A program made the translations under genes and the position numbers. A DNA stretch of 32,000 bases from an uncultured Methanosarcinales archaeon (GTDB lineage: Archaea; Nanobdellota; Nanobdellia; Woesearchaeales; JACPBV01), in the NCBI GenBank assembly GCA_964609455.1, contig CAZSRD010000009.1:1-32000 (forward strand), read 5' to 3'. Below, one piece after another: positions 14,844 to 27,793 of this stretch. Below the pieces are notes generated by a model. That model did no database searches and was not told the DNA's origin. It worked only from the letters and a program-made list of their open reading frames with translations. The stretch's first letter is position 1. Each line of letters opens with the position of its first letter.

Positions 14844-15232
14844 AAATGCAAGATTTAAAGGTAAAAATTGATGGAAAGGAGTATAGTGTTAAGGTTGAAG
14901 AATTAGATTCTGGAAAACTTAAAGTATATTTTAATGGAGAAACTTTTGAGGTAGAAACAAAATCAGATATTAGTGATAAATTATTTCAAGGAATTGATGG
15001 TGGAAGGTTGGACAAGGAGAAGGGCACAATTTTGGCGCCCTTGCCAGGAATTATTTTTTCTGTTGATGTTAAGGTTGGTGATATTGTTAAGAAAGGAAAG
15101 AAATTAATTAGTTTGGTTGCAATGAAAATGGAGAATGAGATTGGCGCTAATGTGGATGGCAAGGTTAAGGAGATTAAAGTCAAGAAAGGGGATATTGTTA
15201 ACAAAGGAGATTTGCTAGTTGTTATTGAGTAA
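14840..15232 (+). CDS. accB: Biotin carboxyl carrier protein (biotinyl/lipoyl domain)
   Basis: The C-terminus is LAPLPGIIFSVDVKVGDIVKKGKKLISLVAMKMENEI, carrying the AMKM biotinyl-lysine motif. The start overlaps the upstream stop (GTGA at 14840-14843), with an alternative ATG at 14846. Confidence 0.9.
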   Translation: MKMQDLKVKIDGKEYSVKVEELDSGKLKVYFNGETFEVETKSDISDKLFQGIDGGRLDKEKGTILAPLPGIIFSVDVKVGDIVKKGKKLISLVAMKMENEIGANVDGKVKEIKVKKGDIVNKGDLLVVIE

Positions 15233-15714: not shown

Positions 15715-16104
15715 ATGAAGCATATAACCCAGCATAGGGTAAGGTATTCAGATACAGATCATTTTGGGGTAGTTTACTATGCTAGATACTTAGATTGGTT
15801 TGAAGCTGGTAGAACAGAGATATTAAGGGTAAATGGGATAACCTATTCTGAGCTAGAGACAAAAGGCATGTTTGCCCCTGTTGTTGAAGTTAAGGTAACT
15901 TATAAGAAACCAGCGAGATATGACGATATTGTTGAATTGGAGACAACTATAAATAGTATAGGGAATTCGAGTGTAAAGTTTAGCTATAAAGCATATAATC
16001 AGAAGAAGGAATTGTTGTTGGAGGCATATACGGTTAATGTTTTTATTAACAAAGAGATGAAGCCTGTAAGGGTTCCTGATGAAATTAGAAAGGTTTTAGA
16101 GTGA
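15715..16104 (+). CDS. Acyl-CoA thioesterase, 4HBT/YbgC hotdog family
   Basis: The 129-aa protein begins HRVRYSDTDHFGVVYYARYLDWFEAGRTE, the YbgC-type catalytic Asp motif. TTTTTAAA lies about 27 nt upstream of the ATG. Confidence 0.8.
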   Translation: MKHITQHRVRYSDTDHFGVVYYARYLDWFEAGRTEILRVNGITYSELETKGMFAPVVEVKVTYKKPARYDDIVELETTINSIGNSSVKFSYKAYNQKKELLLEAYTVNVFINKEMKPVRVPDEIRKVLE

Positions 16105-16761
16105 ATTTATTATAATATCTCCTTCCCTAACTTGGATTTTGTTTCCGTTTTTATCTTTTAAAATCAAAAAACAATCTTTGTCAATATCATAGGCTATACC
16201 TTTATAGGCCCCGTTTAGTGTTTTGACTTTAACTTGAGAGCCTAAGAAAGAGTTCCTTTTCCAATCACGGATTATTTTAGATTGTTTGCTTTTTAGGTAA
16301 GATTCAAAATTTTTTAATAACACTTTAATTACTTTTTCATTGTTTATCCCTTTCTTTTTTATATATTTTAATGAAATAGCTTTGTTTTTTAATGAAAATG
16401 GTATTTCATTATTGGTGTTTATGCCAATACCAACTATTGCTTTTTTTTCTTTAAGTTCTGTTAATATCCCACATACTTTCTTTTTTCCATAGATTAAGTC
16501 GTTTGGCCATTTAATCCTTATTTTTTTTATATTCAGCGCTTTTTTAGCAGAGAGAGCTGCTATGAATGTATAAAATTGAGGTTTTGTTGTTTTGGGTAAA
16601 ACCAAGGATAAATAGATTCCTCCTTTTGAAGATTTCCAATTGCGTTTGAACCTGCCTTTACCTTTAATTTGTTCATCAGCTATAATCACAGAATTAATCC
16701 CAAAGAATTTAGCTTTAGTGTTAGTAGAGTTTAATCTCTTAAAATGATATATTTTAAACAT
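16096..16761 (-). CDS. birA: Biotin-[acyl-CoA carboxylase] ligase, group I (no HTH domain)
   Basis: QIKGKGRFKRNWKSSKGGIYLSLVL matches the GRGRxxRxWxSxxG biotin-binding loop, and KWPNDL is present. There is a small C-terminal SH3-like domain. The start overlaps the accC stop by 8 nt. The 3' end overlaps the convergent thioesterase gene by 9 nt. Confidence 0.85.
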   Translation of the reverse strand: MFKIYHFKRLNSTNTKAKFFGINSVIIADEQIKGKGRFKRNWKSSKGGIYLSLVLPKTTKPQFYTFIAALSAKKALNIKKIRIKWPNDLIYGKKKVCGILTELKEKKAIVGIGINTNNEIPFSLKNKAISLKYIKKKGINNEKVIKVLLKNFESYLKSKQSKIIRDWKRNSFLGSQVKVKTLNGAYKGIAYDIDKDCFLILKDKNGNKIQVREGDIIINSL

Positions 16762-18637
16762 TTTCTTCAGAATTCATTTGTTCCTGTCTAGCAGATGTTA
16801 CCCATGCAGATTGTTTTTTTTCTATCTTACCTTTGTCAAGGTATTGTGAAACTGCAGTTGTAACAATCAATATTTTTTCCTTTTTTGTCAATCCATTTTT
16901 CTTTACTTTTTTTGTTTTTAGTTGGCCTAATATATTGTTTTTTTCAATGAAGTTGGTTGTGGTATCCCCTTTTGCAAATGCTTTGTTGCTCAATACAACT
17001 TTGTGGAATGGTATTGTTGTTTCTACCCCTTCTATGATGAATTCTTCAAGGGCCCTTTTCATTCTTGAAATGGCCTCACTTCTGTTAGAGCCCCTACACA
17101 TTAGCTTGGCAATTAAGGAATCATAATGCGGGCTTACTACATGTCCTGCATGGCAAGAGCTACAAACTCTGATACCTGGGCCTCCCGGGGGCAGATAATT
17201 TATTATTGTTCCTGTAGTGGGGCAGAAGTCCTCTGCCGGGCATTCTGCATTTATTCTACATTCAATAGCTGCGCTATCAATCTTTATATCTTCCTGCTTA
17301 TATGCTAATTTTGCTCCTGCAGCTATTTTAATTTGCTCTTTTATTAAATCAACACCAGTAACCATTTCGGTTATTCCATGTTCAACCTGGATTCTTGTAT
17401 TCATCTCCATAAAATAGAAGTTTCTGTTTTTGTCTAATAAAAATTCTACAGTTCCAGCACCTATATATTTAACTGCATTAACAATCTTAATTGCTGCTTC
17501 ACCCATTCTCCGCCTTAACTCTTTATCTACTGCTGGAGAGGGGGCCTCTTCTATTAGTTTTTGATGTCTTCTTTGAATGCTACATTCTCTTTCCCCTAAG
17601 TGGATAGCATTACCAAACTTATCTGCCAATACTTGGAATTCTATGTGGCGCGGAGCTTCCATATATTTTTCCATATATAGCGAATCATCACCAAAAGAGG
17701 ATTGTGCCTCTGCTTGCGCGCTCTTAAAGGCTTTTGAAATCTCCTTTTCATTTTCTATAACTCTCATTCCTTTTCCACCACCACCAGAAACAGCTTTTAC
17801 AATCACAGGATACCCTATTTCTTTTGCGGACTTTATGGCGTCCTTTATGTTCTTTAGTGATTTTGTTCCAATAATCAAAGGTATTCGCAAGCGCTTGATG
17901 GTTTGCCTTGCTTTGTCTTTATTTCCCATTAGAGTAATAGATTTTGCTGAAGGACCAATAAACTTAATATTCTTTTTTTCACATAATCTTGCAAAATCAC
18001 TATTTTCAGCTAGAAAACCATAACCTGGGTGGATAGCATCAGCTTTTGCTTTTTTTGCTATTTTAATTATCTTTTTATAATCCAAATAACTAGTTGGCTT
18101 ATTCCCTACTGAATAAGATTTGTCTGAAAATTTTACAGCTAAGGTATTTTTATCTTGTTTTGTGTGTATAATGGCTGTTTGTATGTCAAGTTCTCTACAA
18201 GCCCTAACTATCCTTAAGGCAATCTCTCCTCGGTTTGCGATTAAAACTCTTTTAAATAACCTTTCTTTACTTACTTTTGTATACTCTTTTTCTTCTTCAA
18301 TGTTAGTTAGCCCTCTTGCGAGCATATCTAAAAAGGATTTTGACGAGCTATCTTTTATTACTTTATTAATCTGTTTTTCATTTAGGTTGGGAAGTTTTTT
18401 GGCAAGATTTTTTGTTATTAAATCACCAAAACTATTCAAATCTGGATTATGCAATAATTTTTCATCCTTTTCTAATACAACCAAATGAGATTTTATGAGC
18501 CTTTCTATCTCATCATATAAATATGGCATTTTTTCATGCGTTCTTTTGGCTAATTTTTTCATGAAGGCATAGCTTTTTTCTATAGGGCTTAATAGGTTAT
18601 TTAAGATTTTGGCTATCTTTTTCTGATTGCTTTCCAT
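16754..18637 (-). CDS. accC: Biotin carboxylase with an extra N-terminal region of about 125 aa and an extra C-terminal region of about 50 aa
   Basis: The core starts at residue 128 or so (FKRVLIANRGEIALRIVRACRELDI). It includes the ATP-grasp loop KAVSGGGGKGMRV and MEMNTRIQVEHGITE. The protein is 627 aa against about 450 aa for typical AccC. A TATA box lies 27 nt upstream of ATG 18637. Confidence 0.9.
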   Translation of the reverse strand: MESNQKKIAKILNNLLSPIEKSYAFMKKLAKRTHEKMPYLYDEIERLIKSHLVVLEKDEKLLHNPDLNSFGDLITKNLAKKLPNLNEKQINKVIKDSSSKSFLDMLARGLTNIEEEKEYTKVSKERLFKRVLIANRGEIALRIVRACRELDIQTAIIHTKQDKNTLAVKFSDKSYSVGNKPTSYLDYKKIIKIAKKAKADAIHPGYGFLAENSDFARLCEKKNIKFIGPSAKSITLMGNKDKARQTIKRLRIPLIIGTKSLKNIKDAIKSAKEIGYPVIVKAVSGGGGKGMRVIENEKEISKAFKSAQAEAQSSFGDDSLYMEKYMEAPRHIEFQVLADKFGNAIHLGERECSIQRRHQKLIEEAPSPAVDKELRRRMGEAAIKIVNAVKYIGAGTVEFLLDKNRNFYFMEMNTRIQVEHGITEMVTGVDLIKEQIKIAAGAKLAYKQEDIKIDSAAIECRINAECPAEDFCPTTGTIINYLPPGGPGIRVCSSCHAGHVVSPHYDSLIAKLMCRGSNRSEAISRMKRALEEFIIEGVETTIPFHKVVLSNKAFAKGDTTTNFIEKNNILGQLKTKKVKKNGLTKKEKILIVTTAVSQYLDKGKIEKKQSAWVTSARQEQMNSEENV

Positions 18638-18660
18638 ATTGCTTTGTAGTTGTTTTTAGC

Positions 18661-18673
18661 TTTAAAAACCTTA
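18661..18673 (-). promoter_or_regulatory. accC promoter: TAAGG element plus TATA TTTTTAAA (read on the minus strand)
   Basis: The reverse complement of 18661-18675 is cCTAAGGTTTTTAAA. The TATA centre lies 27 nt from ATG 18637. Confidence 0.5.
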
Positions 18674-18693
18674 GGTTTTTGATTGGATAAAAC

Positions 18694-18707
18694 ATAAGCT
18701 TTTTAAA
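18694..18707 (+). promoter_or_regulatory. fabZ-operon promoter: ATAAGC element plus TATA TTTTTAAA
   Basis: cATAAGCTTTTTAAAg lies about 47-56 nt upstream of the fabZ start. The predicted leader contains the SD-like GGGGTG. Confidence 0.45.
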
Positions 18708-18750
18708 GCGTTTTAGCCTTCTAAAGCCAGAACATAGTACAAATTATGGG

Positions 18751-19260
18751 GTGTTAATTATGAAAACAATAGATGAATTAAAGAATGATAAAGGTGAAAT
18801 TGATAGCAATGCTATTAAACAAATAATACCTTATGAAATACCTTTCTTAATGATAGACAGGGTTCTTAGCTTAGATAAAAATAAAGTGGTTGCTATTAAG
18901 AATACATCTGCCAATGAAGAATTCTTCAAAGGCCATTTTGCAGGATTTCCAATAATGCCTGGAGCTTTAATCATAGAGGGCATGGGGCAAGCTGCTACTT
19001 TATTATTGCGGTATAACCTTGAAAATCACTGGGAGAAGGAAGTTTTAGCTTATAAAATAAAAGAAGCAAAGTTTTTAGCACCAACATTTCCAGGTTACCA
19101 GCTTAAATATGAAATTACTATGCTTGGTAAGGACGAAAGGGGAGCTTTAATGAGCGGAAAGGCTATTGTGGATGATAATGTTGTAGCTGAAGCAACTATG
19201 ATGCTTGCTGTTGTGGATAGAAGGGATTTTAGGTCTAAAGCATCCCCTGTTTATAAGTGA
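18751..19260 (+). CDS. fabZ: 3-hydroxyacyl thioester dehydratase, FabZ family hotdog
   Basis: FFKGHFAGFPIMPGALIIEGMGQAA matches the FabZ active-site motif (HFxxxPxMPGxLxxExxxQ). The track start is GTG 18751. ATG 18760 behind GGGGTG is more likely. Confidence 0.85.
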   Translation: MLIMKTIDELKNDKGEIDSNAIKQIIPYEIPFLMIDRVLSLDKNKVVAIKNTSANEEFFKGHFAGFPIMPGALIIEGMGQAATLLLRYNLENHWEKEVLAYKIKEAKFLAPTFPGYQLKYEITMLGKDERGALMSGKAIVDDNVVAEATMMLAVVDRRDFRSKASPVYK

Positions 19261-19266
19261 TTTCTT

Positions 19267-20391
19267 ATGGAAAGATATGTGAAGGGGGTAGGGATGACTA
19301 AGTTTGGGGTAGAGGATAAAACTACACACAGCATGGCTTTTGAAGCTATAAATCTTGCTTTGGATGATTCTAATATGAATATGGGGGATATTGACGCTGT
19401 TGTTGTCAGCACTGTGGATACTAAAATAAATGAGGAGCGGCAGAGGATGTATGGCGTTGTTTTGAGCAGCATGCTGAAAAAACAGATGCCAATAATCAGG
19501 GTGCCTGCTGTTTGCGGTGGAGGAGGAGCTGCTTTTTGGACAGCTTTGAGATTAAAATATAACAATATTCTGGTTTTGGGTGTTGACAAAGTTTTAGCTG
19601 GCCCAACACCAATAATCACAAAGGAAATAATGAATGCAGGTGATAATTTTTGGGAGCAAGAAGAAGGTTTGGTGTTTCCTGCTCAGAATGCTTTGGTTGC
19701 TCAGCAACATATGCTTAAATATGGCACAACACATGATGATTTAGCATTGATTGCATATAAAAATCATCATAATGGCAGCCTAAACCCCAAAGCAAGATTC
19801 TATGGCAAAAAGGTTACTTTAGAGGACATTAAAAAATCACCTATTGTGGCAACACCCTTTAATCTGTATGATTGTAGCATAAGTGTAAATGGGGCTGCTG
19901 CCGTCATTATTTCAAATGAAAAATCAGATATTAAAGTTATAGGATCTGCTTTAGCAACAGATTATTTGGCTCCTTTTGAGAGGAAAGATATGACTGTATG
20001 GAATGGAACAGTGAAAGCAGGAAAAGAAGCATTTAAACAAGCTGGTGTTGAACCAAAAGATATTGATGTAGCTGAGCTTCATGATGCGTTTTCAATTATA
20101 GAGTTAATTGCTTACGAGGATTTGGGATTTTGCAAAAAAGGAGAAGGAAAAGAGCTTATAAGGCAAGGGCATACTACTCTAGATGGGAAAATGCCTGTTA
20201 ACACATCTGGCGGATTGAAGGCAAGGGGGCATCCAATCTCTCCAACAGGAGTTGCTATGATTGTTGAGATTGTAGATCAGTTAAGGAATAGATGCGGGGA
20301 AAGGCAGGTTAAGGATGCTAAATTAGGATTAACACATAATGTTGGTGGAGCAGGAGGAACAACTACTGTTCACATCCTCAGAAAAATATAA
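19267..20391 (+). CDS. Archaeal-type thiolase (SCP-x/acetyl-CoA C-acyltransferase-like), paralog 1
   Basis: The 374-aa protein has the VKGVGMTKFG N-terminus, the nucleophile region VPAVCGGGGAAF, and NTSGGLKARGHPISPTG and HNVGGAGGT near the C-terminus. Confidence 0.85.
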   Translation: MERYVKGVGMTKFGVEDKTTHSMAFEAINLALDDSNMNMGDIDAVVVSTVDTKINEERQRMYGVVLSSMLKKQMPIIRVPAVCGGGGAAFWTALRLKYNNILVLGVDKVLAGPTPIITKEIMNAGDNFWEQEEGLVFPAQNALVAQQHMLKYGTTHDDLALIAYKNHHNGSLNPKARFYGKKVTLEDIKKSPIVATPFNLYDCSISVNGAAAVIISNEKSDIKVIGSALATDYLAPFERKDMTVWNGTVKAGKEAFKQAGVEPKDIDVAELHDAFSIIELIAYEDLGFCKKGEGKELIRQGHTTLDGKMPVNTSGGLKARGHPISPTGVAMIVEIVDQLRNRCGERQVKDAKLGLTHNVGGAGGTTTVHILRKI

Positions 20392-20407
20392 TCTATATTT
20401 TTCTGGG

Positions 20408-20439
20408 ACACAAAAAATTGCAAAGCAATTTTTTCGTGT
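20408..20439 (+). terminator. Strong intra-cluster hairpin (14-bp stem with one bulge) containing a T6 run. It may be a terminator, attenuator or RNA-stability element.
   Basis: acacaaaaaattgc (20408-20421), loop aaa, gcaattttttcgtgt (25-39). It lies 17 nt after the thiolase-1 stop and 32 nt before the next ATG. The function is not established. Confidence 0.35.
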
Positions 20440-20470
20440 ATTTGATAAGATAGCTGCATAAGGTGATTTA

Positions 20471-21601
20471 ATGACAAAAACAATAAGATGGATTTGTGAG
20501 AAATGCGATAAGAAATGGATACATCCAATTGAGAAGTGCTTGTATTGCAGGGGAGAGATTAAAAAGCAGGTAGGAACCAGATTAAAGGTTGTAGGCTATA
20601 CTAAGGTTTATACTCCTTGTCCACCACACCCTATTATCCCTTATAATGTTTTAATCTTAGAGGACGAATATGGCAACAAGATGCCTAAAAAGACAATAAA
20701 GGATTATAATCTTGGTGATGCTTATGAGGATAAGCCAGACGCTTCAGAGAATTCAGTTGCTGTAGTGAAGATAAAGTATGATTTTTATGAAGCTGTTAAG
20801 GGGGCCTTAGAGCTTATAGGGGGTATAGAGGCAGATTCAAACACAAGGGTCTTGATTAAACCTAATATCAGTTTTCCGGGCTATTCTTATATGGGTATTT
20901 GTACTAACCCTAATGTTATTAGTGGGTTAATACAATATTTGTTGGGCAACCGGGTGAAGAAAGAGAATATAACTATAGCAGAGCAAAGCTTTTTTGTTCC
21001 TTTGGAAAAGACAATAGCGAAATCTGGCATAAATAAGGTTATTAAAAGTTTTGGGGTTAAATTTGTGGATATAAGCAAGGCAGAATTTGAAGAGAAGAAA
21101 GAAGGAGAATTTGCTTTTGAAGTGAGTAAGATAGTCAATGATTTTGATTTAATTTTTAATGTGCCTGTTATAAAAACAGATATGCTGCTTGGAATAGACG
21201 GGGCTTTTGAGAATTTAACAAGATTTCTATCTAAGAAAAGTTTTGATGAGTTAGCAAAAGATCCTAAGAAGGCTGTTGCTGCTTTGACACTTTTACCAAA
21301 GGTGTTGCCTAATTTTATTACATTGGGTGATGCTTCTATAGGCATGCAGGGGAATGGGCCTGCTGAATATGGTGAGCCAGGATTTTTTAATTTAATATTT
21401 GCTGCGAGGAACCCTGTTGTTCACGATAAAATCATTCAAGAGGTTTTTTGTTTGAGGAAATTGCCTTATGTTGAGTTAGCAGGCAAATTGGGCATTGGGG
21501 AGCATGATATATCCAAGATAAATGTTATTGGAAATGAACTGGATGCCTTAAGGAGAGATATAAAACAACCGATAGGCTCCAAATTAATAAAAAACCCATA
21601 G
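20471..21601 (+). CDS. Fusion protein: N-terminal DUF35-type zinc ribbon plus OB fold (thiolase scaffold family) joined to a C-terminal DUF362-like domain
   Basis: The N-terminal ribbon is WICEKCDKKW...KCLYCRG (CxxC...CxxC). It is followed by GTRLKVVGYTKVYTP...PYNVLILEDEYGNKM (DUF35 OB-fold pattern). From about residue 120, TRVLIKPNISFP...ICTNPNVISGLIQYL resembles DUF362. The DUF362 assignment is from memory of the family consensus. The SD-like AAGGTGA lies 4 nt before the ATG. Confidence 0.65.
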   Translation: MTKTIRWICEKCDKKWIHPIEKCLYCRGEIKKQVGTRLKVVGYTKVYTPCPPHPIIPYNVLILEDEYGNKMPKKTIKDYNLGDAYEDKPDASENSVAVVKIKYDFYEAVKGALELIGGIEADSNTRVLIKPNISFPGYSYMGICTNPNVISGLIQYLLGNRVKKENITIAEQSFFVPLEKTIAKSGINKVIKSFGVKFVDISKAEFEEKKEGEFAFEVSKIVNDFDLIFNVPVIKTDMLLGIDGAFENLTRFLSKKSFDELAKDPKKAVAALTLLPKVLPNFITLGDASIGMQGNGPAEYGEPGFFNLIFAARNPVVHDKIIQEVFCLRKLPYVELAGKLGIGEHDISKINVIGNELDALRRDIKQPIGSKLIKNP

Positions 21602-21655
21602 GTTTTTTAAGACCTCAAACTTTTTAAAAGTTTTAGCTGATTAAGAAGGATTAAA

Positions 21656-22777
21656 ATGTTTGTAAAAGGAGTTGGCATGACGAAGTTCGGGATTTCTGAT
21701 AAGTTTTCACACCAGTTAGCATATGATGCTTGCCTTGAAGCTTTGGATTGTGCTGATATGAGCTTTAATAAGATAGACGCAATTGTTTGTTCAACCTTAG
21801 AGTGGTTTTTTTCTATAGAAAAACAAAGGCATTTTGCTGGAATGTTGAGCTCTATGTTCAGGACAAACAAGCCTATAATAAGGGTTCCTGCTGGCTGTGC
21901 TGGCGGAGGCCATGCTTTGTGGGTAGCAAATCAATTGGGCTATGATAATGTCCTTGTTGTAGGAGTAGAAAAACTGATGACATGTAAGTCAGAGTCTATT
22001 ACAGACGAATTTATGATGGCGATGGAGTCTAAATGGGAACAGCCAGAAGGGGTAACTGCTCCATCTTCTGCTGCGATAGTGGCAAGAGAGTATCTCAACA
22101 GATTTCCAGATACAACCATGGATGATTTAGCATTGATTGCATATAAAAACCATTCAAATGGATTTTTCAATCCAAAGGCGCGTTTCTATAATAAAAAAGT
22201 TACTTTGGAAGATATTAAGAAATCAAAGATTGCTGCTTCGCCTTTGAGAGTTATGGATTGCAGCATTAGTGTTGACGGGGCTGCCGCTGCTGTGTTGACA
22301 AAGGATAAGTCAGATGTTAAGATAATTGGTTCTAGCCTTTGTACAGACAGATTAGCCCCTTTTGAAAGCAGAGATTTAACAACATGGGAAGCAACATCTG
22401 TTTCTGCAAAAGAGGCTTTTACACAAGCTAAATTAACGCCTAGTGATATTGATTTTGTAGAGATACATGATGCATTCACAATAGTCGAGCTGATGAGTTA
22501 CGAGGATATTGGCTTTGCCAAAAAAGGAGAAGGGGTTAAATTGATAAGGGATGGCGTTGTTAATATTGATGGGAGAATGCCAGTGAATACATCAGGCGGA
22601 TTAAAGTCAAAAGGGCACCCGCCTTCTGCTACTGGGCTTAGCCAGATTTGTGAGATTGTAGAACAAATGAGGGGGGAGGCAGGAGATAGACAAATTAGCA
22701 ATACTAATTTTGCTTTGGCTCATAATGTTGGCGGGGTTGGCGGCACTGTTACCTGCCATATATTGAAGAAAGTTTAA
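21656..22777 (+). CDS. Archaeal-type thiolase, paralog 2
   Basis: The 373-aa protein is collinear with paralog 1: MFVKGVGMTKFG, VPAGCAGGGHALW, NTSGGLKSKGHPPSATG, HNVGGVGGT. Shared stretches include DDLALIAYKNH and NPKARFY.KKVTLEDIKKS. Confidence 0.85.
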   Translation: MFVKGVGMTKFGISDKFSHQLAYDACLEALDCADMSFNKIDAIVCSTLEWFFSIEKQRHFAGMLSSMFRTNKPIIRVPAGCAGGGHALWVANQLGYDNVLVVGVEKLMTCKSESITDEFMMAMESKWEQPEGVTAPSSAAIVAREYLNRFPDTTMDDLALIAYKNHSNGFFNPKARFYNKKVTLEDIKKSKIAASPLRVMDCSISVDGAAAAVLTKDKSDVKIIGSSLCTDRLAPFESRDLTTWEATSVSAKEAFTQAKLTPSDIDFVEIHDAFTIVELMSYEDIGFAKKGEGVKLIRDGVVNIDGRMPVNTSGGLKSKGHPPSATGLSQICEIVEQMRGEAGDRQISNTNFALAHNVGGVGGTVTCHILKKV

Positions 22778-22830
22778 AATTCGTAACAATAATAAACAAA
22801 TATAAAATACCAATAACAAGGTGATTCAGA

Positions 22831-23571
22831 ATGAGCTTAAAAGGAAAAAATGCTTTAATAACCGGTTCAGCTCGTGGACTAGGAAAAGAAATGGCTTTAG
22901 CTCTTGCTAAAGAAGGCTGCAATATAATAATAAATGATATTGAAGTGATGAAGGAAGAAGCACTTAAAACTGTAGCTGAGATTAAGAATTTTGGGGTTAA
23001 ATCTGAGTTTGTTGCTGCTGATGTTTCTAATTTTGAAAGCTGCAAGAAAATGGCTGAAGATATTAAGAAGAAATTCGGCAAGGTGGATATTTTAGTAAAT
23101 AATGCTGGGATTACTAAAGACAGAACTCTTAAGAAGATGACGCCAGAGGAATGGTATCCTGTGATTAATGTTAACTTGAACAGTTTGTATAATGTTACAC
23201 ATAATGTTTTGGAGATGATTCCAGAGGGTGGCAGGATAATAAATATATCTTCTATTGCCGGAATATCAGGCAATTTCGGGCAGACTAATTATGCTTCGAC
23301 TAAAGCTGGAGTGATTGGATTTACAAAGTCATTAGCTAAGGAGGTTGGCAAGATGAAAATAACAGTAAATGCTGTTGCTCCTGGCTTTATAGAATCAGCT
23401 ATGACTGATAAGATACCGATGGAGATGTTATCGCAGATATTACAGTTGATTCCACTTAGAGAGATTGGCCAGCCATTAGATGTGGCTAATGCTGTTAAGT
23501 TCTTGGCGTCTGACGATGCGAAGTATATATCTGGAACGGTAATTAAGGTGGATGGTGGTATTAGCTTCTAA
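22831..23571 (+). CDS. fabG: 3-oxoacyl thioester reductase, classical SDR (FabG-like)
   Basis: Motifs are TGSARGLG (TGxxxGxG), NNAG, and the catalytic SSIAG...YASTKAG (S-Y-K). AAGGTGA lies 6 nt before the ATG. Confidence 0.85.
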   Translation: MSLKGKNALITGSARGLGKEMALALAKEGCNIIINDIEVMKEEALKTVAEIKNFGVKSEFVAADVSNFESCKKMAEDIKKKFGKVDILVNNAGITKDRTLKKMTPEEWYPVINVNLNSLYNVTHNVLEMIPEGGRIINISSIAGISGNFGQTNYASTKAGVIGFTKSLAKEVGKMKITVNAVAPGFIESAMTDKIPMEMLSQILQLIPLREIGQPLDVANAVKFLASDDAKYISGTVIKVDGGISF

Positions 23572-23697
23572 GAGTTCAGGTATTATAGGCCACGAAAAAC
23601 CATTAAATTTAAATACTCCCCTTATTTCTCTAGGCATTAGTATACCGGGAGTACTACTTCTAGTAGGAAATCAGAGTATAACTAACACAAAAGGTGA

Positions 23698-23910: not shown

Positions 23911-23991
23911 GTTTCCTATTTCTTTTTTATTTTTTTATTTTGAGCAAGATTTATAAAGTAATTCTATACTCTAATTATTGGGGGTTTTATC

Positions 23992-25146
23992 ATGAATTTT
24001 GACTTTACACCAGAACAATTGGCAATAAAGAAGATGATTACACAGTTTGTAGACTCTGAAATAAAGCCATATGCTGCAGATGCTGATCAAAAAGAGATTT
24101 TTCCAGCTGAGCAGATCAAGAAGTTAGCTAGATTGGGGGTTATGGGTATGTCTATACCTAAGAAATATGGTGGAGCAGAGTTAGATAATATTTCTCAGGC
24201 AATAATCATGGAGGAAGTAAGCAGAGGATGCAATGCAACTGCTGTCACAATGGGAGCTCATGCTTCTCTTACATGCCACCCCATTGTTAATTTTGGTACA
24301 GAAGACCAGAAGAAGAGATTCTTGCCAAAATTAGCTTCTGGAGAGTATTTGGGGGCATTTGCACTTACTGAGCCAAATGCAGGCAGCGATGCTGTTAATG
24401 TGCAAACAACTGCTATTAGGGATGGTGACAAGTATATAGTTAATGGCAATAAGATATTCATAACAAATGGTGGAAAGGCTGATTTGATATGCATTGTTAC
24501 AACAACTGATAAAAGCAAGAAGCATAATGGATTAAGCATTTTTGCTTTTGAGCCTAAGAAAACAGAGGGATTTAGTTTAGGAAAAAAAGAGGATAAATTA
24601 GGGTTAAGGGGCTCAAATACACAAGAATTAGTCTTCAGGGACATGAGGCTTCCTAAGGATAATTTAATTGGCGGAGTTGAAGGAGAAGGTTTTAAGATTG
24701 CAATGAGTGTTTTCAATTCTGGAAGAATTGGCATAGGGATGCAAGGTGTGGGAATTGCGCAGGCTGCTTTTGATGAATGTTTGAAATATGTACAAGAAAG
24801 AGAACAGTTTGGAAGAAAGCTGCATAAGTTTCAGGCTTTACAATTTATGCTTGCTGATATGGCAACTAAGATAGAGGCCGCTAGGCTGTTGTGTTACAAG
24901 GCTGCTGATATTAAGGATAAAGGAAAGAGATATGTAAAAGCAGCTGCTATGGCCAAGTTATATGGTTCGGATGTGGCTATGGAAGTTACTAGAGCCGCTA
25001 TACAGATCCATGGTGGTTATGGCTATATGAAAGATTATCCTTTAGAAAGATTTTACAGGGATGCTAAGATTACAGAGATTTATGAAGGAACTTCTGAAAT
25101 TCAAAGATTGGTTATTGCAGCTGAATTATTAGGGAGAGGTTTCTAA
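23992..25146 (+). CDS. Short/medium-chain acyl-CoA dehydrogenase (butyryl-CoA dehydrogenase-like)
   Basis: The 384-aa protein has [12 protein letters not shown], a C-terminal [13 protein letters not shown] (the catalytic Glu position of Bcd/SCAD/MCAD), and IHGGYGY. Confidence 0.9.
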
Positions 25147-25147
25147 G

Positions 25148-25942
25148 ATGAACATTATTGTATGCATAAAGCAAGTACCTGATACAAATGAAGTTAAGAT
25201 AGACCAAAAAACAGGAACGTTGATTAGGGAAGGGGTTCCAACTATTATGAATCCTGATGATAAGCATGCTTTAATAGAAGCTATTAAGATAAAGAATAAA
25301 CATAAAGGGAAAGTCACTGTTATATCAATGGGGCCACCACAGGCTGAAGAAGCTTTGCGTGAATCGCTTGCTTTTGGAGCTGATGAAGCAATTTTACTTT
25401 GTGATAGGGCTTTTGCTGGTTCGGATACATGGGCAACTGCAAATGCAATAGGTGCTGCGATAAAACATATTGGCAATTATGACTTATTGTTGTTTGGAAG
25501 GCAGGCAATAGACGGGGATACTGCCCAAGTTGGACCTCAAGTTGCAGAATTTTTAAGCCTTCCACAAATTACCTATGCTCAGAAAATTGAGTTAGGTGAA
25601 GGAAAGGTTAAGGTAGAGAGGCAGATGGAAGAAGGCTACGAAGTTATAGAGGCTGCTCTCCCTTGTTTAATCACATGTGTTTCTGAGATTAATGAAATAG
25701 GATATCCTAGCCTACATGGCATAAAAGAAGCTTATAGAGAGAAAGAAGTTAGGGTATTGAGCGCAGAAGAAATTGAGGTAGACAAATATAAGATAGGATT
25801 ATTGAGTTCTCCTACATCTGTCAAGAAGTCATTTACTCCTCCAGCAAAGGGGCAGGGGCAGATTTTAAAAGGTTCTACCAAAGAAGTTGTCGAGAAGCTT
25901 GTTTCAATATTAAAAGAAAAGGAGATAATAGGTGCTTTTTAA
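25148..25942 (+). CDS. etfB: Electron transfer flavoprotein beta subunit
   Basis: It begins MNIIVCIKQVPDT and is 264 aa. It starts 2 nt after the ACAD stop. Confidence 0.9.
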   Translation: MNIIVCIKQVPDTNEVKIDQKTGTLIREGVPTIMNPDDKHALIEAIKIKNKHKGKVTVISMGPPQAEEALRESLAFGADEAILLCDRAFAGSDTWATANAIGAAIKHIGNYDLLLFGRQAIDGDTAQVGPQVAEFLSLPQITYAQKIELGEGKVKVERQMEEGYEVIEAALPCLITCVSEINEIGYPSLHGIKEAYREKEVRVLSAEEIEVDKYKIGLLSSPTSVKKSFTPPAKGQGQILKGSTKEVVEKLVSILKEKEIIGAF

Positions 25943-27105
25943 TGGTGAAAGTAAAAGTAGCTATGCAATGCCCGGAAACACAGCTTAATCTAGGCGGGAT
26001 TGTATTAATCAGGGGAAATGATTTTGAAGATGTACCGAATATGCCTGAAGTTCAGCAGGCTATAGATAATGGTTATCTAGAAGTTTTGAAAGAAGAAAAG
26101 AATCTTGAAAAAAAGGAAAAGAAAGAGGGCGAGGAAGTTTTGGTTTTTGCAGAGCAAAGGCATAATAAAATATCAAGGGTAGTTTTTGAATTATTAGGCA
26201 AGGCAAGGGAGTTAGCAGATAAATTAAATGTCAAAACAGCAGCTATTTTATTGACGGATAAGGATTCTGGTTTATCCCAGGATCTGATAAACTATGGAGC
26301 TGATAAGGTTTATTTGGCAGAGTCACCCATATTAAAAAATTATCAAACTGATTTTTATACTAAGGTTGTATCTGAACATATCCGGAAAACAAAACCCCAG
26401 GTTGCCATATATGGGGCAACACATATTGGAAGAGATTTAGCACCAAGAATTGCCCAGAGGATTAATACTGGTTTAACTGCTGATTGTACTGGTTTAGATA
26501 TTACAGAAGACGGATTATTATTACAGACAAGGCCTGCTTTTGGAGGCAATTTAATGGCTCAGATAATATGCAAGAAGCATAGGCCGCAGATGTCAACTGC
26601 AAGACCTGGCGTCTTTAAGATGAGAGAGAAGGATGGAAGCAGGAAAGGAGAGATAGTTAAAATTGCTGCAAATGTCTCTGAGAAAGACAGCAAACTAAAG
26701 GTTTTGGAGATAATAAAAGAAGCTAAGAAAAAAGTTAATCTAGAGGAAGCAAAGATAATTGTTTCAGGCGGAAGAGGATTAGGAGAGAAAAAGAACTTTA
26801 GCTTAGTTGAAGATCTTGCACGATTGTTAAAAGCAGAGGTTGGTGCTTCAAGGGCGGCTGTCGATTCTGGATGGATAGCTAAAGACCACCAGGTTGGACA
26901 GACAGGAAAAACAGTGAGGCCTAAGCTTTATATTGCAATAGGAATTTCTGGAGCTATACAGCATAAGGCTGGAATGCAGAATTCTGATATGGTTATAGCA
27001 ATAAACAAGGATTCCAGCGCGCCTATATTTGAAGTAGCTGATTATGGGATTGTAGGTGATTTGTTTAAGGTTGTTCCTGAGCTTATTAACGAGCTGAAAA
27101 AATAA
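25942..27105 (+). CDS. etfA: Electron transfer flavoprotein alpha subunit with an extra N-terminal segment of about 65 aa
   Basis: The ETF-alpha core runs from VLVFAEQRHNKI to the FAD signature PKLYIAIGISGAIQHKAGM...VIAINKD. The start ATG overlaps the etfB stop (TAATG), which supports the long N-terminus. Confidence 0.9.
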   Translation: MVKVKVAMQCPETQLNLGGIVLIRGNDFEDVPNMPEVQQAIDNGYLEVLKEEKNLEKKEKKEGEEVLVFAEQRHNKISRVVFELLGKARELADKLNVKTAAILLTDKDSGLSQDLINYGADKVYLAESPILKNYQTDFYTKVVSEHIRKTKPQVAIYGATHIGRDLAPRIAQRINTGLTADCTGLDITEDGLLLQTRPAFGGNLMAQIICKKHRPQMSTARPGVFKMREKDGSRKGEIVKIAANVSEKDSKLKVLEIIKEAKKKVNLEEAKIIVSGGRGLGEKKNFSLVEDLARLLKAEVGASRAAVDSGWIAKDHQVGQTGKTVRPKLYIAIGISGAIQHKAGMQNSDMVIAINKDSSAPIFEVADYGIVGDLFKVVPELINELKK

Positions 27106-27118: not shown

Positions 27119-27141
27119 AAACTAGCTATTTTTCTAGTGTT

Positions 27142-27792: not shown

Positions 27793-27793
27793 A

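What the first reader, a model, noticed from the sequence alone, without database searches (positions are those of the whole stretch)
19267..22777. Two thiolase paralogs flank a DUF35::DUF362 fusion, a variant of the archaeal thiolase/DUF35 condensing complex that lacks HMG-CoA synthase
Seen: the order is thiolase, then a protein whose N-terminus is a CxxC...CxxC ribbon plus OB fold (DUF35 pattern) and whose C-terminal 250 aa or so look like DUF362, then a second thiolase. The two thiolases are clearly paralogous and collinear but diverged.

Established: in archaea, DUF35 proteins scaffold thiolase and HMG-CoA synthase, so the unfavourable Claisen condensation is pulled forward. DUF362 has no assigned function.

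Inference: no HMGCS is present here and the neighbours are FabZ and FabG. The fusion may therefore scaffold a hetero-thiolase complex dedicated to acyl-chain elongation, for example with one paralog priming and the other elongating. DUF362 could then provide a new partner-binding or catalytic function.
Basis: partly seen in the sequence, partly recalled or inferred. Interest (0 to 1): 0.68.

Follow-up and report, generated by a model that had tools for sequence, protein, structure and literature searches.

The report
Thiolase pair with DUF35–DUF362 adaptor
A tiny (DPANN, Woesearchaeota) archaeon carries a conserved three-gene core, two thiolases around a thiolase-docking domain fused to a remodelled enzyme-like domain, inside a full carrier-protein-free gene set for making bacterial-type fatty-acid phospholipids, which such archaea were assumed unable to build.

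Summary
Window 19267-22777 encodes thiolase (374 aa), a 376-aa fusion and a second thiolase (373 aa; 55% identical). Pfam finds DUF362 in the fusion (aa 127-321) but no DUF35. The N-terminal 88 aa is nonetheless a divergent DUF35: a Zn-ribbon plus OB fold matching solved DUF35 structures, and hhalign 93% against Pfam-verified DUF35s.

The trio is not chance. In 80 species-level Woesearchaeota genomes a thiolase lies directly upstream in 67/71 and on both sides in 44/49. FabZ, FabG, acetyl-CoA carboxylase genes, two PlsC-like acyltransferases and GpsA usually lie nearby. No HMG-CoA synthase, ACP or KAS is in the window.

Both thiolases keep the Cys/HDxF/GHx catalytic motifs.

The DUF362 part is remodelled. 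The family-invariant Lys, Glu and Gly are replaced by fixed Glu247, Gln293 and Arg251, and the Cys-rich second domain is deleted.

The same adaptor is elsewhere fused to 3-hydroxyacyl-CoA dehydrogenase or to canonical DUF362, always directly downstream of a thiolase.

Best reading: a new variant of the archaeal thiolase/DUF35 condensing complex, driving CoA-based fatty-acid synthesis. Physical assembly, division of labour between the paralogs and the DUF362 role remain untested.

The parts
19267..20391 (+). Upstream thiolase (KT-up, 374 aa), archaeal/SCP-x-type acetyl-CoA acetyltransferase family. It carries the nucleophile Cys83, HDAF (H272) and GHP (H322).
   Evidence: Pfam Thiolase_C_1 6.7e-52. 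Best PDB relatives are archaeal ACATs 7yvy (3.5e-67) and 6esq_A (5.4e-57). Motifs are invariant in 61/61 orthologues.
20471..20734 (+). Fusion protein aa 1-88: divergent DUF35-like module (4-Cys zinc ribbon plus OB fold). It lacks the N-terminal helical segment of stand-alone DUF35.
   Evidence: Foldseek hits to DUF35 chains. hhalign Prob 93% against Pfam-verified DUF35. Pfam itself is negative. It is the most conserved part of the protein: mean top-residue frequency 0.73 against 0.60 for DUF362 over 79 species.
20747..21601 (+). Fusion protein aa 93-376: remodelled DUF362 (LarA N-domain-like alpha/beta fold). Glu247, Arg251 and Gln293 replace the family-invariant Lys, Gly and Glu. It has no C-terminal Cys-rich domain.
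   Evidence: Pfam DUF362 3.7e-25. Foldseek to LarA-family racemases, E 1.9e-6 and weaker. Motif comparison with 44 generic DUF362 proteins and 9 canonical fusions. Alignment A3.
21656..22777 (+). Downstream thiolase (KT-down, 373 aa), a paralog of KT-up (55% identity) with the same catalytic motifs.
   Evidence: It forms a separate orthologous group from KT-up within each major clade. Six positions are differentially fixed.
18751..19260 (+). FabZ-type hot-dog 3-hydroxyacyl thioester dehydratase.
   Evidence: Pfam FabA 3.3e-25. NCBIfam FabZ NF000582 scores 129 bits against a cut-off of 113. It lies upstream of KT-up in 64/65 loci.
22831..23571 (+). FabG-type SDR 3-ketoacyl reductase.
   Evidence: Pfam adh_short_C2 1.8e-65. 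NCBIfam 3-oxoacyl-ACP reductase TIGR01830 scores 296.9 bits, just under the cut-off of 297.75.
23992..27105 (+). Acyl-CoA dehydrogenase-fold enoyl-CoA reductase (23992-25146) plus EtfB (25148-25942) and EtfA (25942-27105), of the bifurcating Bcd/EtfAB type.
   Evidence: Pfam. ACAD best NCBIfam match is acryloyl-CoA reductase AcrC, 5.8e-155. EtfB best PDB hits are all bifurcating Etfs (6fah_B 2.5e-89, 5ol2_B, 4kpu_B), against about 1e-27 for non-bifurcating ETF. This block is present in only 10/38 loci.
27142..28426 (+). Two PlsC/AGPAT-family acyltransferases (27142-27792, 27794-28426), each with the NHxxxxD and PEG(H/T)R motifs.
   Evidence: Pfam Acyltransferase 3.4e-22 and 1.4e-29. Motifs read from the sequence.
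28419..29402 (+). Bacterial-type NAD(P)-dependent sn-glycerol-3-phosphate dehydrogenase (GpsA).
   Evidence: Pfam NAD_Gly3P_dh_N/C and GPD_NAD_C_bact.
13293..15232 (+). Acyl-CoA carboxylase carboxyltransferase (13293-14843) and biotin carboxyl carrier protein (14840-15232).
   Evidence: Pfam Carboxyl_trans 2.4e-180 and Biotin_lipoyl. Syntenic in related loci.
15715..16104 (+). 4HBT/acyl-ACP-thioesterase-like hot-dog thioesterase (candidate chain-terminating acyl-CoA thioesterase).
   Evidence: Pfam 4HBT_2 1.2e-17 and Acyl-ACP_TE 1.3e-8.
16096..18637 (-). Biotin protein ligase BirA (16096-16761) and biotin carboxylase (16754-18637; 627 aa, with an extra N-terminal stretch of about 125 aa).
   Evidence: Pfam. 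NCBIfam accC TIGR00514 scores 643 bits against a cut-off of 626. Biotin carboxylase lies upstream in 43/54 loci.

Best explanation
The three genes encode the condensing core of an ACP-independent, CoA-thioester fatty-acid synthase in a Woesearchaeota (DPANN) archaeon.

Shown:
- There are two catalytically intact archaeal-type ketothiolases.
- Between them lies a protein whose N-terminus is a divergent DUF35 zinc-ribbon/OB module.
- Its C-terminus is a LarA-N-domain-like DUF362 that has lost family-invariant residues and the second, Cys-rich domain.
- The trio sits in a conserved cluster with FabZ, FabG, (in this clade) a Bcd/EtfAB-type enoyl-CoA reductase, acetyl-CoA carboxylase plus BirA, a thioesterase, two PlsC-like acyltransferases and GpsA.

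Inferred mechanism:
1. As in every solved DUF35 system, the DUF35-like module docks on the thiolase(s) at or near the CoA entrance. It holds a partner there, so that 3-ketoacyl-CoA is removed at once and the unfavourable Claisen condensation is pulled forward.
2. Here the tethered partner is the covalently fused DUF362-derived domain. I take it to be a ligand- or partner-binding platform that recruits FabG and FabZ and/or clamps the CoA nucleotide, rather than an enzyme with the ancestral DUF362 chemistry.
3. The second thiolase paralog occupies the place that the thiolase-fold HMG-CoA synthase (or PhlA/MucA) has in the known tripartite complexes. That gives two condensing sites, probably with different chain-length or extender preference.
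4. FabG, FabZ and Bcd/EtfAB complete each elongation cycle.
5. The acyl-CoA products are esterified to glycerol-3-phosphate by the two PlsC-like enzymes.
For: - Domain identities.
- Catalytic motifs (Cys, HDxF, GHx; the motif set named for ACATs in PMC12960953) are invariant in 61 upstream and nearly so in 61 downstream thiolases: Cys and HDAF 61/61, the GHP His 60/61.
- Synteny over 80 species-level genomes: thiolase directly upstream 67/71, thiolase on both sides 44/49, FabZ 64/65, biotin carboxylase 43/54, PlsC 27/38, GpsA 25/38.
- Independent architectures with the same adaptor: 23 of 117 representative hits are fusions to 3-hydroxyacyl-CoA dehydrogenase and 48 are fusions to DUF362. In the five further adaptor-fusion loci from outside this family where the upstream gene was readable, the fusion sits directly downstream of a Thiolase_C_1 thiolase: Micrarchaeota L085, Brocadia L086, L087, Diapherotrites L089, L090. 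In L088 a thiolase lies about 1 kb upstream across one opposite-strand gene.
- Precedent: KT/DUF35 nucleates the KT+ACR+HCD fatty-acid synthase complex in S. acidocaldarius (10.1101/2024.07.05.601840). DUF35 fused to its partner enzyme is known from the HMGS-DUF35 fusion of P. fluorescens (PMC12960953) and is reflected in the PDB entry names 'Ltp2-ChsH2(DUF35)' and 'Sal-Shy(DUF35)'.
- Direction of the pathway: FabZ/FabG-type enzymes, a bifurcating-type EtfB and an AcrC-like reductase, acetyl-CoA carboxylase with BirA, and acyltransferases with intact HX4D motifs.
- No HMGCS, ACP or KAS is in the window. Published surveys report the MEP rather than the mevalonate pathway in Woesearchaeota (PMC8204110; PMC10936187).
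- DUF362 remodelling: K->E247, G->R251 and E->Q293 in 12/12 Woesearchaeal sequences, against K, G in 53/53 and E in 51/53 generic plus canonical-fusion sequences. E247 and R251 are themselves at least 97% fixed over 79 species, and Q293 is invariant in two smaller alignments (26 sequences; 12/12). The Cys-rich domain is deleted.
Against: - No physical interaction was tested.
- Pfam does not recognise the DUF35 part, so the docking inference rests on remote homology.
- The role of the co-clustered acetyl-CoA carboxylase is unexplained if both thiolases condense acetyl-CoA non-decarboxylatively. In S. acidocaldarius, malonyl-CoA use was disproved for the one ketothiolase tested, Saci_1114, and no decarboxylating KT was identified.
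- An enoyl reductase is in the cluster in only 10/38 loci.
- About 20 polar residues of the DUF362 part stay invariant and lie at strand ends, as in an active-site crevice. A catalytic role is therefore not excluded.
- Whether these genomes also make archaeal ether lipids, or take lipids from hosts, is unknown.
Confidence: 0.58

Rival explanations
1. The DUF362 domain is still an enzyme and supplies a real catalytic step. Examples would be a cofactor-dependent reduction or another transformation of 3-ketoacyl-CoA, or handling of malonyl-CoA made by the adjacent carboxylase. The fusion is then a two-activity protein and not mainly a scaffold.
For: In other DPANN lineages a canonical DUF362 and 3-hydroxyacyl-CoA dehydrogenase occupy the same slot. 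The arrangement is thiolase -> DUF35-like::X, with an N-acyltransferase directly after it in L087, L089 and L090 (further along the locus in L085) and a polysaccharide deacetylase nearby in L085, L087 and L090. The fold is that of LarA hydride-transfer enzymes. About 20 residues of the domain are at least 97% conserved over 79 species, including K130, K235, T236, E247, N248, R251, D287 and D319, and they lie at strand ends.
Against: The residues that are universal in DUF362 are replaced: Lys of KN, Glu of EGxGP, and often His of KTH. The second domain, which in the canonical-fusion model extends the match to near-full-length LarA chains (by recalled knowledge the LarA cofactor sits between its two domains; not checked here), is degenerate or deleted. 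A dedicated FabG and FabZ are encoded next door, leaving no obvious missing step except, in most loci, the enoyl reductase. More eroded versions (335-347 aa, Pfam 38 bits or none) are still kept next to or near a thiolase, with FabG and FabZ in the same locus.
Confidence: 0.2
2. The cluster works mainly as a fermentative reverse-beta-oxidation or butyrate-type route. Acetyl-CoA goes to short acyl-CoA with ferredoxin reduction by Bcd/EtfAB, serving redox balance and energy conservation. The thioesterase releases the acid, and membrane lipid synthesis is not the purpose.
For: Bifurcating-type EtfB and an AcrC/Bcd-like dehydrogenase. A thioesterase is in the cluster. A pyruvate/2-oxoacid:ferredoxin oxidoreductase is inserted inside the trio in L001. 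Woesearchaeota are described as fermenters (PMC5994134; PMC8204110).
Against: Bcd/EtfAB is present in only 10/38 loci, while the trio, FabZ and FabG are near-universal. The enzymes are FabG/FabZ-type, not Hbd/crotonase-type. Acetyl-CoA carboxylase, BirA, two PlsC-like acyltransferases and GpsA are co-clustered.
Confidence: 0.12
3. The genes act in degradation (beta-oxidation). The two thiolases cleave 3-ketoacyl-CoAs of different chain length, and ACAD/ETF oxidises acyl-CoA.
For: Thiolases are reversible. ACAD plus ETF is the classical first step of beta-oxidation.
Against: No S-specific 3-hydroxyacyl-CoA dehydrogenase or crotonase-type hydratase is present; FabG and FabZ take those places. 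EtfB is of the type found in NADH-consuming reductive complexes. Carboxylase, acyltransferases and GpsA are co-clustered. No acyl-CoA synthetase is in the window.
Confidence: 0.06

Closest known systems
Archaeal fatty-acid synthase complex of Sulfolobus acidocaldarius (KT Saci_1121 / DUF35 Saci_1120 + ketoacyl-CoA reductase Saci_1104 + MaoC dehydratase Saci_1085; separate enoyl-CoA reductase Saci_1115), bioRxiv 10.1101/2024.07.05.601840
   Same: It is ACP-independent and CoA-based. An archaeal-type ketothiolase is paired with a DUF35-type protein as the nucleus. An SDR-type ketoreductase and a hot-dog-fold dehydratase act next. DUF35 is thought to pull the condensation by channelling.
   Different: Here DUF35 is very divergent and covalently fused to a DUF362-derived domain. 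Two thiolase paralogs flank it. The dehydratase is FabZ-type, not MaoC. The enoyl reductase is Bcd/EtfAB-type (or is absent from the cluster), not an NADPH-dependent stand-alone enzyme. The genes are clustered with acetyl-CoA carboxylase and with G3P-ester lipid assembly genes.
Thiolase/HMG-CoA synthase/DUF35 complex of Methanothermococcus thermolithotrophicus (PDB 6ESQ/6ET9; Voegeli et al. 2018, cited in PMC12960953)
   Same: The thiolases are close relatives of 6esq_A (E 5.4e-57 and 1.3e-52). The N-terminal module matches chains 6esq_E/F/G by fold at 25-26% identity. The layout is two thiolase-fold proteins plus one DUF35.
   Different: There is no HMG-CoA synthase; the second thiolase-fold protein is a true thiolase paralog with an intact Cys/HDxF/GHx set. 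The DUF35 carries a C-terminal cargo domain. The pathway context is fatty acid, not mevalonate.
DUF35 domains fused to or paired with a partner enzyme: ChsH2(DUF35)-Ltp2 and Shy(DUF35)-Sal steroid aldolases, BbsAB benzoylsuccinyl-CoA thiolase, the HMGS-DUF35 fusion of Pseudomonas fluorescens (PMC12960953), PhlABC and MucABC acyltransferases
   Same: DUF35 acts as an adaptor on a thiolase-fold enzyme. Fusion of DUF35 to the neighbouring pathway enzyme has precedent. The fold matches 6ok1, 7pxp, 5m3k, 9vbt and 9myr.
   Different: The fusion partner (DUF362) and the domain order (DUF35 at the N-terminus) were not found in the searched literature. Unlike PhlC/MucB, the thiolases here keep the HDxF motif. 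Unlike Ltp2/Sal, they keep the nucleophilic Cys.
DUF362 (PF04015) / LarA lactate-racemase superfamily (Pfam clan CL0471; PMC11770544)
   Same: The Pfam match is above threshold. The alpha/beta fold resembles LarA-family structures (2yjg, 7s91, 9eia). The conserved KPN, T-x-P, K-T, N248, D287 and G-P motifs are kept.
   Different: The Lys, Glu and Gly that are invariant in 44 generic DUF362 proteins are replaced by fixed Glu247, Gln293 and Arg251. His237 is variable (Asp in the window). The Cys-rich C-terminal domain is missing. No larB/C/E-like genes are in the window.
DUF35-like::3-hydroxyacyl-CoA dehydrogenase fusions found here (P0159 family; Micrarchaeota, Scalindua/Brocadia, Coriobacteriia, Actinobacteria)
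   Same: The same divergent DUF35-like N-terminal module (E 1e-18 to 1e-7 with the window-family profile), located directly downstream of a Thiolase_C_1 thiolase.
   Different: The cargo is a recognisable enzyme, the step that follows the thiolase. There is a single thiolase and no FabZ/FabG/ACC/PlsC context.

Membership tests
DUF35 (Pfam zf-ChsH2 PF12172 + OB_ChsH2_C PF01796) | Match to the Pfam models above the gathering score | tested here: not met
   hmmscan of aa 1-127 and aa 1-86 at E<=10 returns no DUF35 model. The whole protein shows only PF04015.
DUF35 (Pfam zf-ChsH2 PF12172 + OB_ChsH2_C PF01796) | Rubredoxin-like four-Cys zinc ribbon followed by an OB fold | tested here: met
   C9, C12, C23 and C26 are present, and C9, C23 and C26 are at least 90% conserved. 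The AF2 model has strands 29-35, 38-46, 58-64 and 70-75. Foldseek matches solved DUF35 chains with prob 1.00 and target TM 0.41-0.50.
DUF35 (Pfam zf-ChsH2 PF12172 + OB_ChsH2_C PF01796) | Detectable sequence homology to verified members | tested here: met
   hhalign A2 against A5 (members verified by Pfam): Prob 93.0%, E 3.4e-7, 75 columns. phmmer of canonical P0236 against the locus ORFs hits fusions at 2.5e-9 and weaker.
DUF35 (Pfam zf-ChsH2 PF12172 + OB_ChsH2_C PF01796) | Gene adjacency to an SCP-x/archaeal-type thiolase-fold gene | tested here: met
   A thiolase lies directly upstream in 67/71 loci. The same holds in L085, L086, L087, L089 and L090.
DUF35 (Pfam zf-ChsH2 PF12172 + OB_ChsH2_C PF01796) | Physical binding to the thiolase-fold partner | not testable with these tools
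No multimer tool is available.
DUF362 (PF04015) | Pfam match above the gathering score | tested here: met
   89.6 bits against a cut-off of 24, aa 127-321, model positions 1-197 of 200.
DUF362 (PF04015) | Family-invariant signature residues (K-T-H, K-N-x-x-G, E-G-x-G-P) and the Cys-rich C-terminal domain | tested here: not met
   The window has K-T-D, E-N-L-T-R and Q-G-N-G-P, and only 22 residues after the core with no Cys. Generic DUF362 has H 44/44, K 44/44, G 44/44 and E 42/44, with tails of 110-133 aa carrying 4-6 Cys.
Archaeal thiolase/HMG-CoA synthase/DUF35 complex (mevalonate pathway) | Archaeal-type thiolase with Cys, HDxF and GHx motifs | tested here: met
   C83, H272-D-A-F and G-H322-P are in both paralogs. 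The upstream paralog is invariant in 61/61; the downstream paralog has Cys and HDAF in 61/61 and the GHP His in 60/61. The closest solved relatives are 7yvy and 6esq_A.
Archaeal thiolase/HMG-CoA synthase/DUF35 complex (mevalonate pathway) | HMG-CoA synthase subunit encoded with the pair | tested here: not met
   No HMG_CoA_synt hit in any window ORF or in the called genes of L001 and L003.
Archaeal ACP-independent fatty-acid synthase (S. acidocaldarius type) | KT/DUF35 pair plus SDR ketoacyl-CoA reductase encoded for the pathway | tested here: met
   KT, the DUF35-like module and a FabG-type SDR are adjacent. By blastp, FabG lies within 3.5 kb in 34/52 loci.
Archaeal ACP-independent fatty-acid synthase (S. 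acidocaldarius type) | MaoC-type (R)-hydroxyacyl-CoA dehydratase and a stand-alone NADPH-dependent enoyl-CoA reductase | tested here: not met
   The dehydratase is FabZ-type. The reductase is ACAD + EtfAB and is absent from the cluster in 28/38 loci.
Archaeal ACP-independent fatty-acid synthase (S. acidocaldarius type) | Stable KT/DUF35/reductase/dehydratase assembly and net acyl-CoA elongation | not testable with these tools
   This needs reconstitution. The published assays are SEC, co-elution and HPLC.
Bacterial type II FAS | ACP, malonyl-CoA:ACP transacylase and KAS condensing enzymes | tested here: not met
   None is among the window ORFs of at least 100 aa or among the four scanned small ORFs. 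Only the window and flanking loci were examined, not whole genomes.
LarA nickel-pincer racemases | Two-domain LarA architecture with NPN-binding residues and accessory LarB/C/E | tested here: not met
   Only the N-domain-like fold is present in the window protein. PDB sequence and profile searches give no LarA hit. No LarB/C/E-like Pfam hits are in the window. Residue-level correspondence to LarA Lys184/His200 was not verified.

The most novel reading that the evidence does not exclude
The trio is a carrier-protein-free fatty-acid synthase core in which CoA itself plays the part of ACP.
- The DUF35-like module bridges the two thiolase paralogs, as DUF35 bridges thiolase and HMG-CoA synthase.
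- The remodelled DUF362 domain clamps the nucleotide end of CoA or docks FabG and FabZ.
- One paralog has become a decarboxylative condensing enzyme that uses malonyl-CoA from the co-clustered carboxylase.

Together with the two PlsC-like enzymes and GpsA, this would let a DPANN archaeon make bacterial-type glycerol-3-phosphate ester phospholipids de novo.

A corollary is that canonical DUF362, seen here in the same slot as 3-hydroxyacyl-CoA dehydrogenase, is an uncharacterised 3-ketoacyl-CoA-processing enzyme family.
Probability: 0.15. Interest if true: 0.88.

Novelty: new variant of a known kind. Interest (0 to 1): 0.66.

Why it matters
1. The cluster would supply the condensing step that has been missing from reports of 'bacterial fatty-acid synthesis genes' in Woesearchaeota. 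Those reports list FabG, FabZ, FabI and G3P dehydrogenase but no KAS or ACP (PMC8204110, PMC10936187). It would also challenge the working assumption that these DPANN archaea cannot make lipid building blocks themselves (PMC11868695). That bears on the 'lipid divide' and on how an archaeon can run a bacterial-type membrane pathway.

2. It extends the DUF35 principle from a free scaffold to a modular adaptor with exchangeable fused cargo: DUF362, 3-hydroxyacyl-CoA dehydrogenase, and the already known HMGS and MaoC.

3. It gives the first pathway context, and a testable functional lead, for DUF362, a widespread family with no assigned function.

Tried and rejected
- Pfam on the isolated N-terminus (aa 1-127 and aa 1-86) at E<=10 gave no DUF35, only sub-threshold zinc-finger noise.
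- PDB sequence searches gave zero hits with the single protein, the full-length profile A1 and the N-terminal profile A2.
- I built a paired, linker-joined alignment of KT-up + fusion + KT-down (A4, 12 species), intending to use pTM as a proxy for a confident assembly.
- The promoter/terminator scan of 18500-29600 gave counts at or below the shuffle expectation. It is a bacterial-type consensus and not informative for an archaeon.
- No tRNA genes are in the window.
- I searched for specificity-determining positions between upstream and downstream thiolases. Across all 122 sequences none was found at the 80% threshold. Only within the window-like clade are six positions differentially fixed.
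- The NJ tree groups paralogs by position inside each of two major clades, not in one global up/down split. A single ancient duplication, two duplications and gene conversion cannot be told apart with this distance tree.
- Literature searches for DUF362/PF04015 function gave nothing functional. Searches for Woesearchaeota plus thiolase, FabG or ACC gave no description of this trio.
- I considered and rejected membership in the PhlABC/MucABC C-acyltransferases, because HDxF and Cys are retained, and in the Ltp2/Sal aldolases, because the Cys nucleophile is retained.
- I also rejected LarA-type racemase function, because there is no second domain and no sequence-level match.

Full report
**What is there.** On the + strand the window carries three tightly spaced ORFs at exactly the reported coordinates: 19267-20391 (374 aa), 20471-21601 (376 aa) and 21656-22777 (373 aa). 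The two outer proteins are thiolases of the archaeal/SCP-x type (Pfam Thiolase_C_1, E 6.7e-52 and 1.4e-48). They are collinear over 372 residues at 55% identity. Their closest solved relatives are archaeal acetoacetyl-CoA thiolases, including the thiolase of the Methanothermococcus thiolase/HMG-CoA synthase/DUF35 complex (7yvy, 6esq_A). The middle protein matches Pfam DUF362 at residues 127-321 (E 3.7e-25).

**The DUF35 question.** Pfam does not see DUF35 in the N-terminus, even when it is scanned alone at E<=10. Sequence and profile searches of the PDB are also empty. Three independent results nevertheless place it in the DUF35 superfamily.
- An AlphaFold2 model built on 26 homologues is confident (pLDDT 87.5, pTM 0.88). 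Its first 90 or so residues hit solved DUF35 chains in Foldseek: ChsH2 6ok1, BbsA 7pxp, the Methanothermococcus DUF35 6esq (25-26% identity), PhlB 5m3k, SSO2064 3irb and MucABC 9vbt. Probability is 1.00 throughout.
- A profile of the N-terminal 92 residues aligns to a profile of stand-alone DUF35 proteins, which Pfam does recognise. hhalign gives probability 93% and E 3.4e-7 over zinc ribbon plus OB fold.
- A canonical DUF35 (P0236, PF01796) finds the fusions directly by phmmer among the fetched loci.

The module is a stripped-down DUF35, without the N-terminal helical segment. It is so divergent that a profile search of 1.84 billion representative proteins returns only 117 relatives and barely reaches canonical DUF35.

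**Organism and conservation.** All named homologues of the fusion come from Woesearchaeota/Nanoarchaeota (DPANN) metagenome-assembled genomes. The window also carries archaeal RadA/RadB-type genes. A scan of one genome per species found the fusion in 80 genomes. I annotated the flanks by BLASTP with the window's proteins. Counts are over loci with enough flanking sequence.

| Feature relative to the fusion | Loci |
|---|---|
| Thiolase directly upstream | 67/71 |
| Thiolase within 3 kb downstream | 50/52 |
| Thiolase on both sides | 44/49 |
| FabZ upstream | 64/65 |
| Biotin carboxylase upstream | 43/54 |
| PlsC-like genes downstream | 27/38 |
| GpsA downstream | 25/38 |
| ACAD/EtfBA block downstream | 10/38 |

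The arrangement is therefore a conserved genetic unit and not a chance juxtaposition. The third gene can be separated from the fusion by an inserted FabG or, in L001, by a 2-oxoacid:ferredoxin oxidoreductase.

**The two thiolases.** The nucleophilic Cys (C83 in KT-up), the HDxF motif (HDAF) and the GHx motif (GHP) are the marks used for functional ACATs in PMC12960953. They are invariant in 61 upstream thiolases and nearly so in 61 downstream ones, where the GHP His is 60/61. Neither paralog is a pseudo-enzyme. In a distance tree, upstream and downstream copies form separate groups inside each of two major clades. Within the window-like clade:
- Identity is about 64% within each group and 53% between groups.
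- Six positions are fixed differently, three of them flanking the GHP loop or following the conserved DCS segment (N208/D207, R320/K319, P326/A325).

This fits long-standing sub-functionalisation. It does not say what the difference is.

**The DUF362 part.** DUF362 belongs to the same Pfam clan as the LarA N-terminal domain (PMC11770544), and the model matches LarA-family racemases. I compared the window family with 44 generic DUF362 proteins and 9 'canonical' fusions from other DPANN lineages.

| Feature | Generic DUF362 and canonical fusions | Woesearchaeal proteins (12 sequences) |
|---|---|---|
| K-T-H motif | His invariant | His variable (Asp in the window) |
| K-N-x-x-G motif | Lys and Gly invariant | Glu247 and Arg251 in 12/12 |
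| E-G-x-G-P motif | Glu nearly invariant | Gln293 in 12/12 |
| C-terminal tail | about 110-133 aa with 4-6 Cys | degenerate (about 482-aa forms) or deleted (about 375-aa forms, as in the window) |

- A model of a canonical fusion (pLDDT 91.4) matches LarA chains over up to about 370-490 alignment columns, that is, over both LarA domains. The window protein keeps only the N-domain-like half.
- E247 and R251 are themselves at least 97% conserved over 79 species. Q293 is invariant in two smaller alignments: 26 sequences and 12/12. About 20 other polar or glycine residues at strand ends are also conserved.
- I read this as neo-functionalisation of a former enzyme domain into a binding or docking module. 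Retained but altered catalysis is not excluded.
- Still more eroded versions (335-347 aa, Pfam 38 bits or undetectable) persist in a locus with a thiolase nearby, FabG and FabZ.

**An adaptor with exchangeable cargo.** Of the 117 relatives of the N-terminal module, 48 carry DUF362 and 23 carry a complete 3-hydroxyacyl-CoA dehydrogenase (3HCDH_N + 3HCDH) in the same position.
- The dehydrogenase fusions are widespread: Micrarchaeota, anammox Planctomycetes (Scalindua, Brocadia), Coriobacteriia and Actinobacteria.
- In both loci examined they sit immediately downstream of a Thiolase_C_1 thiolase.
- Canonical DUF35::DUF362 fusions from Diapherotrites-type DPANN have the same position. They share with a Micrarchaeota dehydrogenase fusion a glycan-cluster context that includes a polysaccharide deacetylase nearby in three of the four loci (L085, L087, L090). 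An N-acyltransferase lies directly after the fusion in L087, L089 and L090, and further along the locus in L085.

Two inferences follow. First, the module is a thiolase-docking adaptor that brings a partner to the thiolase, the same logic as DUF35 in the HMG-CoA synthase complex and in the S. acidocaldarius fatty-acid synthase. Second, canonical DUF362 may act on the thiolase product. The second point rests on analogous displacement in a handful of loci and is only a lead.

**Pathway context and direction.** Around the trio the window encodes the following.
- FabZ, which passes the NCBIfam FabZ cut-off, and FabG.
- An acyl-CoA dehydrogenase-fold protein most similar to clostridial acryloyl-CoA reductase AcrC. 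It comes with EtfB/EtfA whose closest solved relatives are exclusively electron-bifurcating complexes: CarD 2.5e-89, C. difficile Bcd-Etf and A. fermentans Etf, against about 1e-27 for non-bifurcating ETFs.
- A carboxyltransferase, BCCP, biotin carboxylase and BirA.
- A hot-dog thioesterase.
- Two PlsC/AGPAT-type acyltransferases with intact NHxxxxD and PEG(H/T)R motifs.
- A bacterial-type GpsA.

No ACP, KAS, FabD or HMG-CoA synthase is present among the ORFs of at least 100 aa or among the four unannotated small ORFs that were scanned. The simplest reading is a CoA-based, ACP-independent fatty-acid synthesis route that feeds acyl-CoA into glycerol-3-phosphate ester lipids. Degradation and fermentative chain elongation are less likely for three reasons: the enzyme types, the carboxylase and acyltransferase linkage, and the patchy presence of the ACAD/Etf block.

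**What is known and what is new.** Thiolase/DUF35 pairs as condensing cores are established for the mevalonate pathway and, in a 2024 preprint, for archaeal fatty-acid synthesis. Surveys have noted 'bacterial fatty acid synthesis genes', G3P dehydrogenase and the MEP pathway in Woesearchaeota (PMC8204110; PMC10936187; PMC6431249). None of these papers, nor any of the papers that mention DUF362 or PF04015 (14 and 9 papers, overlapping), describes any of the following:
- the thiolase-DUF35::DUF362-thiolase unit;
- the remodelling of DUF362;
- the 3-hydroxyacyl-CoA dehydrogenase fusions.

I therefore class it as a new variant of a known kind of system.

**Open problems.**
- The carboxylase has no obvious client if both thiolases are non-decarboxylative. 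In S. acidocaldarius, malonyl-CoA use was disproved for the one ketothiolase tested, Saci_1114. A decarboxylative paralog is therefore an attractive but unsupported idea.
- Most loci lack an enoyl reductase in the cluster. In the clade with 482-aa fusions the extra genes are a CoA-transferase and a methyltransferase, free or fused to an SDR, so the product there may differ.
- Whole-genome content (ACP, ether-lipid genes) was not examined.

Noticed in passing
L085:7001-8092 (Micrarchaeota), L086:7001-8110 (Brocadia); proteins P0159, P0239, P0273 and about 20 further representatives: The same divergent DUF35-like N-terminal module is fused to a complete 3-hydroxyacyl-CoA dehydrogenase (about 363-375 aa), directly downstream of a Thiolase_C_1 thiolase. 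It occurs in DPANN, anammox Planctomycetes, Coriobacteriia and Actinobacteria. In Brocadia the next gene has a weak HMG-CoA-reductase-like Pfam hit. I did not find it described in the searched literature.
   Followed up: partly
L087:2613-4013, L089:858-2255, L090:8001-9392 (proteins P0147, P0362, P0360): Canonical DUF35::DUF362 fusions (about 465 aa, with intact KTH/KN/EGMGP motifs and a CSGC-containing Cys-rich domain) sit after a thiolase and before an N-acyltransferase in glycan-biosynthesis clusters. A Micrarchaeota locus (L085) has the 3HCDH fusion in the same slot. This suggests that canonical DUF362 may act on acetoacetyl-CoA.
   Followed up: partly
L082:15515-15910, L039:15589-15984, L080:16989-17390, L054:10894-11334, L011:5730-6059, L065:14756-15061, L058:18670-18984: Some Woesearchaeota loci additionally carry a stand-alone canonical DUF35 (Pfam-positive) in the same loci as a third class of thiolase-like protein. 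In that protein the nucleophilic Cys is replaced by Asp, Glu or Gly, which is reminiscent of Ltp2/Sal-type non-thiolytic enzymes.
   Followed up: partly
window 23698-23910 (+): A 70-aa gene lies in the 420-nt gap between FabG and the acyl-CoA dehydrogenase. It encodes a treble-clef zinc finger (Pfam zf_Tbcl_2, E 1.9e-21) with a Gly/Arg-rich tail. Its function and any link to the cluster are unknown.
   Followed up: partly
L040:6253-7971, L051:14452-16161, L066:14423-16135, L083:13335-15026: In the clade with about 482-aa fusions, which lacks ACAD/Etf, a protein of about 570 aa joins an N-terminal extension of about 320 aa to a FabG-like SDR. The extension is probably methyltransferase-like, judged from the separate MT and SDR genes of L003; it was not scanned itself. 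A family III CoA-transferase also appears in L003. The product in that clade may be modified, for example methyl-branched.
   Followed up: no
L001:11139-13490: A three-subunit 2-oxoacid:ferredoxin oxidoreductase (POR alpha, beta, gamma) is inserted between the fusion and the downstream thiolase. It could supply acetyl-CoA or branched primers directly to the condensing enzymes.
   Followed up: no
window 16754-18637 (-): The biotin carboxylase is 627 aa. Its Pfam domains start only at residue 128, leaving an N-terminal extension of about 125 aa with no family match. The homologues in L001 (616 aa) and L003 (562 aa) are also long.
   Followed up: no
window 207-7906 (+): Two very large ORFs (1611 and 955 aa) have only Big_13, fn3 and TSP3-repeat hits. 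They are probably surface or adhesion proteins, as is common in DPANN.
   Followed up: no
loci L006, L009, L012, L013, L020 and many others (record titles): Many third-party-assembled MAG records that carry this Woesearchaeota-type cluster are titled 'uncultured Methanosarcinales archaeon', and one short contig (L084) is titled 'Nitrospinota bacterium'. These look like placeholder or mis-binned labels and not real taxonomic spread.
   Followed up: no
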